Source: the human T2T-CHM13v2.0 reference genome, Homo sapiens
Reading direction: 5' to 3' (one strand)
Length of the DNA stretch: 64,000 nucleotides
Assembly: GCF_009914755.1 (NCBI RefSeq)
Contig: NC_060928.1
The translations under genes were made by a program, and so were the position numbers. Within the stretch, counting starts at the first letter, position 1. Every line of letters begins with the position of its first letter. The notes under the pieces are model-generated. The model had not been told where the DNA came from and searched no databases. It was given only the letters and a program-made list of their open reading frames with translations. Of this stretch, positions 9,799 through 12,626 are shown piece after piece.

Positions 9799-10132
9799 GG
9801 CCAGGTGTGGTGGCTCACGCCTGTAATCCCAGCATTGTGGGAGACAGGCCAATCACTTCAGGTCAGGAGTTTGAGACCAGCTTGGCCAATATGGTAAAAC
9901 CCCATCTCTAGGAAAAATACAAAAAATTAGCTGGACATGGTGGCACGCGACTATAGTCCCAGCTACTCAGGAGGCTGAGGCAGGAGATTCACTTGAACCT
10001 GGGAGGCAGAGGTTGCAGTGAGCCGAGATTGCGCCACTGCACTCCAGTCTGGGCAACAGAGCAAGACTCTGTTTCAAAAAAGAAAAGAAAAGAAAAGAAA
10101 AGAAAAGAAAAGAAAAGAAAAGAAAAGAAAAG
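9799..10132 (+). mobile_element. Alu (AluSx-type) hosting the AAAAG repeat
   Basis: Dimeric Alu starting GGCCAGGTGTGGTGGCTCACGCC; TSD GAAAAAGCAAGTTCTA (9783-9798) / GAAAAAGCATGTTCTA (10132-10147). Confidence 0.95.
10078..10132 (+). repeat. (AAAAG)11 pentanucleotide in Alu tail, RFC1 intron 2 (CANVAS locus, non-expanded allele)
   Basis: Eleven perfect AAAAG units. The first unit is 2923 nt from the last base of exon 2 (13001), matching the recalled c.132+2923 description of the CANVAS repeat. Confidence 0.97.
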
Positions 10133-12626
10133 AAAAAGCATGTTCTAAAGAGAATAGCAACGGTGTAGCTGGAGTATCACTTGATAAAGAGATTATGGGA
10201 TTATACAGGCAAAAACACTGTCAGTTTGAATTGAAGAGGATGGAGAAAGGACAAAATGAAAGAAGGCTGTCAGACTTCTGAGATTCCAGTGACAGGACAA
10301 CACAGCTATTCTTCAAGAAAAGGGAAGAATGGCCCCAAAAGCAATTCAGAGATCAACCATCAGAACTCCCTCTTCAAAAGATGGAGCTTGGTTTCAACAG
10401 ATGAGACAGCCACCACCCAAAGCCTTGTGGGCAGGATGGCCCAGCAGAGCTGCAGAAGCAGGACAGCTGCCTGTGACTGTGGGGGTAGGGCCACTAACCC
10501 AGTGGGTCTAGAGGGCAGGGCATCAAGCCAAAGAGTATTATTTTCAAGGCTTATGTTCTGATTGAATTTGCCTTGCTAGGTTTTGGACTTGTTTGGGATC
10601 CATCACCCCTCCCTCCCTTCTGATTTCTCCTCTTTGGAATGGTAATGTCTATCCTATATGTCTGTTCTACTATCATATTTTAGAAGCACATTCCTTATCT
10701 GGTTTCACAGGTTCACAGCAAAAGAGAAATTTTCCCTCAGGATGATTCATACCTCAAGTATCACCCATATCTGATTTGGATGATATTGACATGAGACTGT
10801 GGACTTCAGACTTGATGCTGAAATGAGTTAAGACTTTGGGGGCTGTTATGATGGAATGAATGTATTTTGCATGCAAGAAGGACATAAATTCTGGGTGGCC
10901 ATGGATGGAATGTTATATCCTGAATGTCTGTGTCCCCAAAATTCACACGTTGAAGCCCTAACCCTCAGGGTGGCTATATTTGGAGTTGGAACCTCTAAAC
11001 AAGTAATTAAGGATAAATAAGGTCGTAAGGGTGGGGCTCTGATCTGACAGGATTAGCATTCTATAAGAACAGACACCAGAGTGCTCATTCAATCTCTATC
11101 TCTCTTTCTCCACCAGTGCTCAATCTCTCTCTCCACCCATATGCACTAAGAAGAGGCTATGTGAGGACAACACGAGAAGGCGGCCATGTACAAAGCAGGA
11201 AAAAGGCCCTCACCAGACACCTAATCAGCCAGTACCATCTATTTTGTAGTATTTTGTCATGGTGGCCTGAACTAACACATGACCCAAAGAATCAGGACAA
11301 AAGGCATTTAATGAAGACCAATTTTGATACAACACAGATGTCAGAATTAGCAGATAAGAATTTTAAAGCAGCTACTAGGCCGGGCACGGTGGCTCACACC
11401 TGTAATCCCAGCACTTCAGGAGGCCGAGGCAGGTAGATCACCTGAGATCGGGAGTTTGAGACCAGCCTGGCCAATATGGAGAAACCCCAACTCTACTAAA
11501 AATACAAAATTAGCCGGGCATGGGGGCTCATGCCTAAAATCCCAGCTACTTGGGAGGCTGAGGCAGGAGAATTGCTTGAACCCAGGAGGCAGAGGTTGCG
11601 GTGAGCCGAGATCGTGCCATTGCACTCCAACCTGGGCAATGAGAGCAAAACTCCATCTCAAAATAAAAACTAAAGCAGCTACTATAATTACACTCAAGGA
11701 CATAAAAGACAGAAATTAAAGCTACAAAAAAGAAACAAATGAAAATTCTAGAATTAAAAAATACAATATGTAAAATAAAAATTCACTAGATAGCCTTAAC
11801 AGTAAATTGGTGATAAAAGAAGAATCAATGAACTTAAAGACAGAAAAAGAGAAAGTACTCAATCTGAAAAAAAGACTGATAAAAATGAACAAGGCTCAAT
11901 GATCTGTGAGACAATATCAAAACTCCAACGTTTATGTAATTGTAATTCAAGAAGAGAAGAGAGAGAATGAGGCAGAAAAAATATTTGAAGAAATTATAGC
12001 AAAATGTTCCCAATTTTGATAAAAGATATAAATTTACAGATTAAAGAAGCTCAGAAACCAAAAATGGGATAAACAAAAGAAAACCACACTCAGGTAAGCC
12101 ATAGTCAAACTGCTGAAAACCAAAAATTAAAAAATTCTTTAATGAACCATGAGAAAAACAACACACATGAGAAAACAACATCAATGACTGGAGGCATCTC
12201 ATCAGATAAACTAGAAGCCAAAAAACAGTGGAACATCTTTAAAAGGCTTAAGTTTTTTAAAAAACAGTCAACCCAAAATTCCATATCCAGCAAAAATAAC
12301 CTTCAAGAATGAAGGCAAAATAAAGACATTTTCAGATTAACAAAAACTTATAGAGGTTTATCACCAACAGACCTACACTACAAAAAATGCTAAACAAAAT
12401 TCTTCAAGTTGAAAGAAAATGATATTAGACGAAAACTCAGATCTTCAGTGAGAAATGAAAAGCATCAGAAATAGCAAATACGTGCATAAAATAAAAACAG
12501 CAATTTTTGCCTTAATTTTTTTAAAAAATACACATCTATTTAAAGTAAAATTACATTGAATTGTGCAGTATTAACATATGTAGGTGTAATATATATGACA
12601 ACTAGGGCATAAAGAATGGAGTGAAT

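What the first reader, a model, noticed from the sequence alone, without database searches (positions are those of the whole stretch)
10078..10138. RFC1 intron-2 Alu-tail pentanucleotide (AAAAG)11: the CANVAS repeat-expansion locus
Seen: an Alu poly(A) tail converted to 11 perfect AAAAG units, antisense to RFC1 (reads CUUUU in the pre-mRNA), with its first unit 2923 nt from the end of exon 2. Established: biallelic replacement and expansion of this repeat by non-reference motifs (chiefly AAGGG, also ACAGG and others) causes recessive CANVAS/late-onset ataxia. AAAAG and some other motifs are polymorphic and usually benign. This haplotype carries the short benign form. The locus is unusual because motif identity, not just length, determines pathogenicity. 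It is known, not novel.
Basis: partly seen in the sequence, partly recalled or inferred. Interest (0 to 1): 0.9.

Follow-up and report, generated by a model that had tools for sequence, protein, structure and literature searches.

The report
RFC1 CANVAS repeat, short benign allele
This is the well-known Alu-tail pentanucleotide repeat in intron 2 of the human RFC1 gene, present here as the short harmless reference form (AAAAG)11, whose replacement by long G-rich motifs causes the recessive ataxia CANVAS.

Summary
Window 10078-10132 is a perfect (AAAAG)11 array. No dinucleotide-preserving shuffle produced a match (0 of 100).

It forms the 3' tail of a + strand Alu at 9799-10077, which has two 7SL-like arms. 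The last six bases of the reported span, 10133-10138 (AAAAAG), are not a repeat unit. They begin the 15-nt target-site duplication that brackets the Alu.

RFC1 runs on the - strand. The annotated exons 1-4 have AG/GT borders and splice into one open frame. The repeat therefore lies in intron 2 and reads (CUUUU)11 in the pre-mRNA.

Two published landmarks fit:
- The array lies 2,863 bp from exon 2, as published.
- The locus-specific part of a published repeat-primed PCR primer matches once and abuts the array.

The allele has the reference motif and length, no predicted fold and no G-quadruplex potential. Papers read here classify it as benign.

How the pathogenic alleles cause disease is still disputed in print. 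This window adds nothing new to that question.

The parts
9784..9798 (+). 5' copy of the target-site duplication (AAAAAGCAAGTTCTA)
   Evidence: 14 of 15 bases identical to 10133-10147, placed exactly at the two ends of the Alu plus tail. The preceding G (9783 and 10132) also matches, but the downstream one is ambiguous with the last G of the array.
9799..10077 (+). Alu element body: left arm about 9799-9905, A-rich linker about 9906-9929, right arm about 9930-10075. It is antisense to RFC1. The literature names it AluSx3; the subfamily was not tested here.
   Evidence: RF00017 matches at 9800-9905 (29 bits, E 1.6e-05) and 9930-10077 (40.3 bits, E 8.3e-09); 75.7-97.1% identity to 46 other Alu 3' ends in the window. 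Subfamily name from Rafehi 2019.
10078..10132 (+). (AAAAG)11 perfect pentanucleotide array, the converted poly(A) tail. It reads (CUUUU)11 in RFC1 pre-mRNA and lies on the template strand for RFC1 transcription.
   Evidence: By the hub's offset this is chr4:39318078-39318132 of T2T-CHM13v2.0 (own arithmetic).
10133..10147 (+). 3' copy of the target-site duplication (AAAAAGCATGTTCTA).
10055..10080 (+). Flank used as the locus-specific part of published repeat-primed PCR primers
   Evidence: Primer text in Dominik 2023. Single exact match in the window, 0 of 100 shuffles match.
13001..13129 (-). RFC1 exon 2 (129 nt, phase 0)
   Evidence: Hub annotation; acceptor ...ttttag| and donor |gttagt, with the frame open.
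7130..13000 (-). RFC1 intron 2 (5871 nt), which holds the repeat near its middle
7054..7129 (-). RFC1 exon 3 (76 nt)
   Evidence: Hub annotation; acceptor ...tttatag| and donor |gtaata.

Best explanation
The feature is the RFC1 intron-2 repeat locus, known from CANVAS, in its short reference form.

An Alu retrotransposon inserted in the + orientation, antisense to RFC1, and left a 15-nt target-site duplication. Its poly(A) tail has since become a perfect (AAAAG)11 microsatellite, presumably through an A-to-G change followed by replication slippage (inferred).

In this form the tract most likely does nothing. It is transcribed as (CUUUU)11 within intron 2 and removed with the intron. It has no self-structure and no G-quadruplex potential.

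Its importance is as the site where non-reference, G-rich motifs replace the tract and expand to hundreds or thousands of units. These motifs are AAGGG, ACAGG, AGGGC, AAGGC, AGAGG and very large AAAGG. When biallelic, or in trans to a truncating RFC1 variant, they cause CANVAS and late-onset ataxia or sensory neuropathy.

Because RFC1 is on the - strand, the purine-rich strand is the template for RFC1 transcription. Expanded G-rich alleles can therefore place quadruplex- or triplex-forming DNA in the path of RNA and DNA polymerases. The downstream disease mechanism remains unsettled in print: partial RFC1 loss of function versus a repeat-dependent, RFC1-protein-independent effect.
For: Shown here:
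- Perfect (AAAAG)11 at 10078-10132, far beyond chance.
- Dimeric 7SL-derived element directly upstream that resembles the window's other Alus.
- Target-site duplication, 14 of 15 bases identical, at the exact borders.
- RFC1 exons 1-4 on the - strand with AG/GT borders and one open frame.
- The purine tract ends 2863 nt from exon 2, equal to the '2,863 bp downstream of exon 2' of Rafehi 2019.
- A published primer flank matches once, exactly, and abuts the array.
- Minimum free energy is 0 kcal/mol for both strands as DNA. The G4Hunter-type score is 0.2.

From papers:
- The reference allele is (AAAAG)11 at the 3' end of AluSx3 in intron 2 (PMC6612533, passages).
- AAAAG, AAAGGG and AAGAG expansions occur at similar frequency in ataxia cases and controls. 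(AAAAG)10 has no predicted G4. Pathogenic motifs share a haplotype different from that of AAAAG(9-11) (PMC10689911, passages).
- d/r(AAAAG)4 forms neither quadruplex nor triplex, unlike AAGGG (PMC10563062, passages).
- The G-run repeat is on the RFC1 template strand. Excision of the Alu plus repeat leaves splicing similar and raises RFC1 expression in patient neurons (bioRxiv 10.1101/2025.11.18.688292, abstract and passages).
- Truncating variants in trans support loss of function (PMC9931080, abstract).
Against: Nothing in the sequence contradicts the identification. Four limits apply:
1. Gene identity rests on the hub's RefSeq table plus my splice-site and frame check and the published landmarks. 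A sequence search of exon 2's 43 residues against PDB chains found 0 matches, so no independent protein-level confirmation was obtained.
2. The AluSx3 subfamily name was not tested, because no repeat library is on hand.
3. The distance to exon 3 here is 2947-2949 nt, against the published 2,952 bp on hg19. This difference of 3 to 5 nt is unexplained; it could be counting convention or a small indel between assemblies.
4. On disease mechanism the papers disagree. Maltby 2024 found normal RFC1 splicing, expression and repair, with deficits neither mimicked by RFC1 knockdown nor rescued by RFC1 reprovision (PMC11373605, abstract and section 8). Curro 2025 reports tissue-specific RFC1 reduction.
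Confidence: 0.97

Rival explanations
1. The short (CUUUU)11 tract is functional in the pre-mRNA. As a 63-nt polypyrimidine tract directly upstream of the antisense Alu's AG dinucleotides, it would bind U-tract or pyrimidine-tract proteins. Depending on the protein, it would either repress or promote use of a cryptic Alu exon in intron 2. hnRNP C, PTB and U2AF65 are named from recall of the general antisense-Alu literature, not from any call.
For: In transcript orientation the pyrimidine tract (10138 down to 10076) is followed within 30-45 nt by AG dinucleotides of the antisense right arm, at about 10052-10036 (printed reverse complement). Maltby 2024 notes that 85% of Alu-containing exons derive from antisense Alus (section 8). 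In the window, 32 of 47 Alu 3' ends are on the + strand.
Against: No exon of any RefSeq transcript lies in intron 2 (hub table). Maltby 2024 saw no non-canonical RFC1 exon usage in normal or disease states. Homozygous excision of the Alu plus repeat left RFC1 splicing similar in iPSC sensory neurons (legend of Supplementary Figure 6C). The tract length and motif are highly polymorphic in healthy people, which argues against constraint.
Confidence: 0.04
2. The array is a chance or assembly artefact, or a look-alike Alu tail that is not the CANVAS locus.
For: Alu-tail microsatellites are common: 15 of 47 Alu 3' ends in this window carry a non-homopolymer microsatellite of 4 or more units within 70 nt. 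An A-rich array at an Alu end is therefore not distinctive by itself.
Against: It is the only AAAAG array in the window. The published primer flank matches only here. The distance to exon 2 equals the published value. Motif and unit number equal the published reference allele. The hub places the window in T2T-CHM13 chr4 within RFC1.
Confidence: 0.01

Closest known systems
RFC1 intron-2 reference allele (AAAAG)11 of hg19/hg38 (chr4:39350045-39350095, hg19, as given by Rafehi 2019)
   Same: Same motif and unit number, same position at the 3' end of an Alu, same intron, same distance to exon 2 and same flank.
   Different: None seen in the array. The distance to exon 3 differs by 3-5 nt from the published hg19 figure. 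No direct alignment to hg19 or hg38 was possible with these tools.
Pathogenic RFC1 alleles: (AAGGG)exp, (ACAGG)exp, (AGGGC)exp, (AAGGC)exp, (AGAGG)exp, large (AAAGG)exp
   Same: Same locus and same purine-rich strand on the RFC1 template.
   Different: This allele has 11 units, whereas the smallest pathogenic AAGGG expansion identified so far has 250 units. Its motif carries a single G. It has no predicted G4 and no quadruplex or triplex in vitro. It comes from a different ancestral haplotype.
Other Alu-tail microsatellites, in this window and genome-wide
   Same: Same origin: a retrotransposon poly(A) tail turned into a short tandem repeat. In this window 15 of 47 Alu 3' ends show one, for example (AC)21, (AAT)13, (TAAAA)5 and (AAAC)5.
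   Different: This is the only AAAAG array and the longest pentamer array in the window, and the only one with a known disease association. Rafehi 2019 notes that other pathogenic expansions lie in Alu elements. Specific examples such as the FXN GAA repeat are recalled and were not checked here.

Membership tests
RFC1 CANVAS repeat locus | Lies in intron 2 of RFC1, between exon 2 and exon 3, on the strand opposite to the gene | tested here: met
   Hub RefSeq exons; AG/GT borders and one open frame across exons 1-4 on the - strand; array at intron positions 2869-2923 of 5871.
RFC1 CANVAS repeat locus | Repeat is the 3' tail of an Alu element (AluSx3 in the literature) | tested here: met
   Two 7SL-like arms end at 10077; similarity to 46 other Alu 3' ends; target-site duplication. 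The subfamily Sx3 itself was not tested, because no repeat library is available.
RFC1 CANVAS repeat locus | Published landmarks: 2,863 bp downstream of exon 2, and the primer flank abutting the repeat | tested here: met
   13001-10138 = 2863. The primer's locus-specific part matches once at 10055-10080 with 0 mismatches. The distance to exon 3 is 2947-2949 against the published 2,952 (a small discrepancy).
Reference (benign) allele | Motif AAAAG, about 9-11 units | tested here: met
   11 perfect units; 'non-pathogenic AAAAG(9-11)' in Dominik 2023.
Pathogenic CANVAS allele | Non-reference G-rich motif (AAGGG, ACAGG, AGGGC, AAGGC, AGAGG, or AAAGG at 600 units or more) expanded to about 250 units or more | tested here: not met
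   Only AAAAG units, 11 of them. G4Hunter-type score 0.2. Thresholds.
Alu (SINE) retrotransposon insertion | Dimeric 7SL-derived body, A-rich linker, A-rich 3' tail, flanking target-site duplication | tested here: met
   and direct reading.

The most novel reading that the evidence does not exclude
The G of the AAAAG motif may not come from a random tail mutation. It may have been seeded by the insertion site itself.

The target site read ...GAAAATGAAAAAGCAAGTTCTA (9778-9798), so the 3' duplication begins with AAAAAG. If the duplication was longer than the clear 15 nt, a GAAAA(T)G proto-unit would already have stood next to the poly(A) tail. In that case the local target sequence would have predisposed this Alu tail to the A(n)G(m) motif series, from which the pathogenic motifs later arose.

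The evidence does not exclude this, but it does not favour it either. The intact five-A unit at 10133-10138 shows that the clear part of the duplication lies outside the array.
Probability: 0.15. Interest if true: 0.2.

Novelty: already known. Interest (0 to 1): 0.1.

Why it matters
The locus is medically important. Biallelic non-reference expansions here are a common cause of late-onset ataxia and sensory neuropathy, and both motif identity and length decide pathogenicity.

For the scan, the result is a positive control. A reader without tools recognised a documented disease locus from raw sequence and placed it correctly. Nothing about this allele is new.

The only additions here are anatomical. 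The last AAAAAG belongs to the target-site duplication rather than to the repeat. The purine strand is the RFC1 template strand, which agrees.

Tried and rejected
1. I searched PDB chain sequences with the 43 residues of exon 2 to confirm RFC1 at protein level. It gave 0 matches at E up to 0.01. From recall, solved RFC structures lack the RFC1 N-terminus. This check led nowhere and says nothing against the identification.
3. Cortese 2019, the first description (PMC id from recall), is not held. The allele-frequency figures of that paper were therefore not verified, and I cite only what Davies 2022 reports of it.
4. I searched for primate or evolutionary work on this Alu with the terms RFC1, AluSx3 and primates. 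One review was listed and not opened. The tools hold no primate genomes, so the age of the insertion and the origin of the G could not be tested.
5. I searched RFC1, CANVAS and 'target site duplication'. Two papers hold all three terms. Neither looks to be about this Alu from its title and abstract start, and neither was opened. I therefore do not claim that the target-site duplication is unpublished.
6. The hits to miRNA families mir-3135, mir-1268 and mir-619 inside the Alu are all far below gathering scores. I read them as Alu-derived family resemblance, not as genes.
7. Self-folding of the array gave 0 kcal/mol on both strands, so no hairpin model applies.

Full report
**Observation**

Reading the + strand shows a run of six A at 10076-10081. 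With the G at 10082, the last four of these A form the first of eleven perfect AAAAG units, which run from 10078 to 10132. After the array come AAAAAG (10133-10138) and then unique sequence.

- Tandem Repeats Finder reports 10078-10136, period 5, 11.8 copies, 100% matches, no indels and score 118.
- A regular-expression count gives exactly 11 units at 10078-10132, with no CTTTT run of 3 or more units on the + strand elsewhere.
- The 55-nt array searched with up to 3 mismatches finds only itself and its own shifted register. None of 100 dinucleotide-preserving shuffles gives any match.
- Among perfect pentamer arrays of 5 or more units in the window, the others are homopolymers plus one (TAAAA)5.

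The purine-only tract is 10076-10138, 63 nt.

**Anatomy**

The 279 nt upstream (9799-10077) are an Alu.

- Two segments match the metazoan SRP RNA model RF00017. These are 9800-9905 (29 bits) and 9930-10077 (40.3 bits). Both are below the gathering score of 70, as expected for the two 7SL-derived Alu arms, and an A-rich linker separates them.
- Used as a blastn query, this element finds 65 HSPs in the window. Of these, 47 (itself included) reach the Alu 3' end, at 75.7-97.1% identity for the other 46.
- The 15 nt immediately before the Alu (9784-9798) and the 15 nt immediately after the eleventh unit (10133-10147) are identical at 14 of 15 positions. This is the target-site duplication of a retrotransposition event.

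An A-rich start of the duplication fits the usual L1-endonuclease target preference; that point is recalled and was not tested.

**Gene context**

The hub's RefSeq table puts RFC1 on the - strand, with exon 1 at 27881-28004, exon 2 at 13001-13129, exon 3 at 7054-7129 and exon 4 at 3998-4120. I checked several points.

- Exons 2-4 are each preceded by AG, and all four exons are followed by GT in transcript orientation.
- The ATG at 27883-27881 joined to exons 2-4 gives 331 nt that translate without a stop.
- Intron 2 is 7130-13000, 5871 nt.
- In transcript orientation the array is (CTTTT)11 at intron positions 2869-2923. It ends 2948 nt before the exon-3 acceptor.

A protein-level confirmation was attempted with exon 2 against PDB chain sequences and gave 0 matches. 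The identity of the gene therefore rests on the hub table, my splice and frame check, and the published landmarks below.

**Match to the published locus**

Rafehi et al. 2019 (PMC6612533, passages read) state the following:
- It lies 2,863 bp downstream of exon 2 and 2,952 bp upstream of exon 3.
- In patients it is replaced by (AAGGG)exp.

Here 13001-10138 = 2863, an exact match. The distance to exon 3 is 2947-2949 depending on where the tract is taken to start. This differs from the published figure by 3-5 nt, and I cannot resolve the difference without an alignment to hg19.

The repeat-primed PCR primers printed in Dominik et al. 2023 (PMC10689911, passages) share a locus-specific part. Its 26 bases match the window once, at 10055-10080, with 0 mismatches and 0 of 100 shuffles matching. 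This places the primers' repeat part exactly on the array.

**Properties of this allele**

- Both strands of the array fold to 0 kcal/mol as single-stranded DNA.
- A G4Hunter-type score is 0.2.
- In print, (AAAAG)10 has no predicted G4, while the pathogenic motifs score 0.94-2.0.
- d(AAAAG)4 and r(AAAAG)4 form no quadruplex, and the AAAAG/CTTTT mixture forms no triplex, unlike AAGGG/CCCTT (Abdi 2023, PMC10563062, passages).
- (AAAAG)8 forms no G4 (Curro 2025 preprint, passages).
- AAAAG expansions are as frequent in controls as in ataxia cases: AAGGG/AAAAG in 21 of 893 cases against 248 of 8107 controls, not significant. AAAAG(9-11) sits on a different haplotype from the pathogenic motifs.
- Non-pathogenic AAAAG expansions range from 15 to 200 units (Davies 2022, PMC9425222, passages).

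With 11 units, this haplotype carries the reference, non-expanded, benign allele.

**How it works**

For this allele the best-supported reading is that it is a neutral Alu-tail microsatellite, removed with intron 2.

Such microsatellites are ordinary. In this window 15 of 47 Alu 3' ends carry a non-homopolymer repeat of 4 or more units within 70 nt.

A possible role of the 63-nt pyrimidine tract in the pre-mRNA, upstream of the antisense-Alu AG sites, was considered. Several results speak against it:
- No exon is annotated in intron 2 (hub table).
- No non-canonical exon usage was seen in control or patient neurons (Maltby 2024, PMC11373605, section 8).
- Splicing was similar after homozygous excision of the Alu plus repeat.
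- The tract is highly polymorphic in healthy people.

For the pathogenic alleles, orientation matters. Because RFC1 is on the - strand, the purine and G-run strand is the template (my inference, stated likewise). The papers then diverge:
- Rafehi 2019 saw no allelic loss of expression.
- Ronco 2023 found truncating variants in trans to one expansion, which supports loss of function (abstract).
- Maltby 2024 found normal RFC1 splicing, expression and repair. Synaptic deficits were rescued by deleting one expanded allele but not by RFC1 reprovision (abstract).
- Curro 2025 (preprint) reports tissue-specific reduction of RFC1 and platinum sensitivity, rescued by excision (abstract). qPCR showed 15% lower expression.
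- A 2026 preprint from another group reports replication-fork stalling at (AAGGG)n (search listing only).

This window cannot arbitrate between these readings.

**Comparison and novelty**

Every defining feature of the RFC1 CANVAS locus that I could test is met. Every defining feature of a pathogenic allele is not met. This is the known locus in its known reference form: already known.

The one speculative addition concerns the target site, which already read GAAAATGAAAAAG. It may have seeded the A(n)G motif. This cannot be tested without primate orthologues and is of minor interest. I did not establish whether the target-site duplication has been described. One search listed two papers whose titles and abstract starts do not concern it, and I did not open them.

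**Verdict**

Interest for discovery is low, although the locus is medically important.

Noticed in passing
window 12636-12938: Another + strand (antisense to RFC1) Alu has its body at 12636-12908. Its pure poly(A) tail of about 28 A ends about 63 nt from the exon-2 donor (13001). In the pre-mRNA this is a long U tract followed by an antisense Alu, very close to a constitutive 5' splice site.
   Followed up: no
window 7190-7367 versus 7859-8131, 9799-10077, 11388-11653, 12636-12908: Intron 2 holds one - strand partial Alu near exon 3 and four + strand Alus. These are inverted Alu pairs that could base-pair in the pre-mRNA. No fold or editing evidence was sought.
   Followed up: no
whole window: 32 of 47 Alu 3' ends are on the + strand, that is, antisense to RFC1 over the part of the window the gene covers. 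15 of 47 tails carry a microsatellite, including (AC)21 after the Alu at 16464-16727, (AAT)13 at the - strand Alu at 53023-53283, and (TA)12 after the Alu at 63494-63611.
   Followed up: partly
window 9790-10055: Weak matches to the Alu-derived miRNA families mir-3135 (39.8 bits against gathering 80), mir-1268 (38 against 83) and mir-619 (19.8 against 80) lie inside the Alu. They are read as family resemblance to Alu sequence, not as miRNA genes.
   Followed up: no
window 7130-10078: The distance from the repeat to exon 3 is 2947-2949 nt here, against 2,952 bp published for hg19. This is either a counting convention or a small indel between assemblies in the 3' half of intron 2.
   Followed up: no
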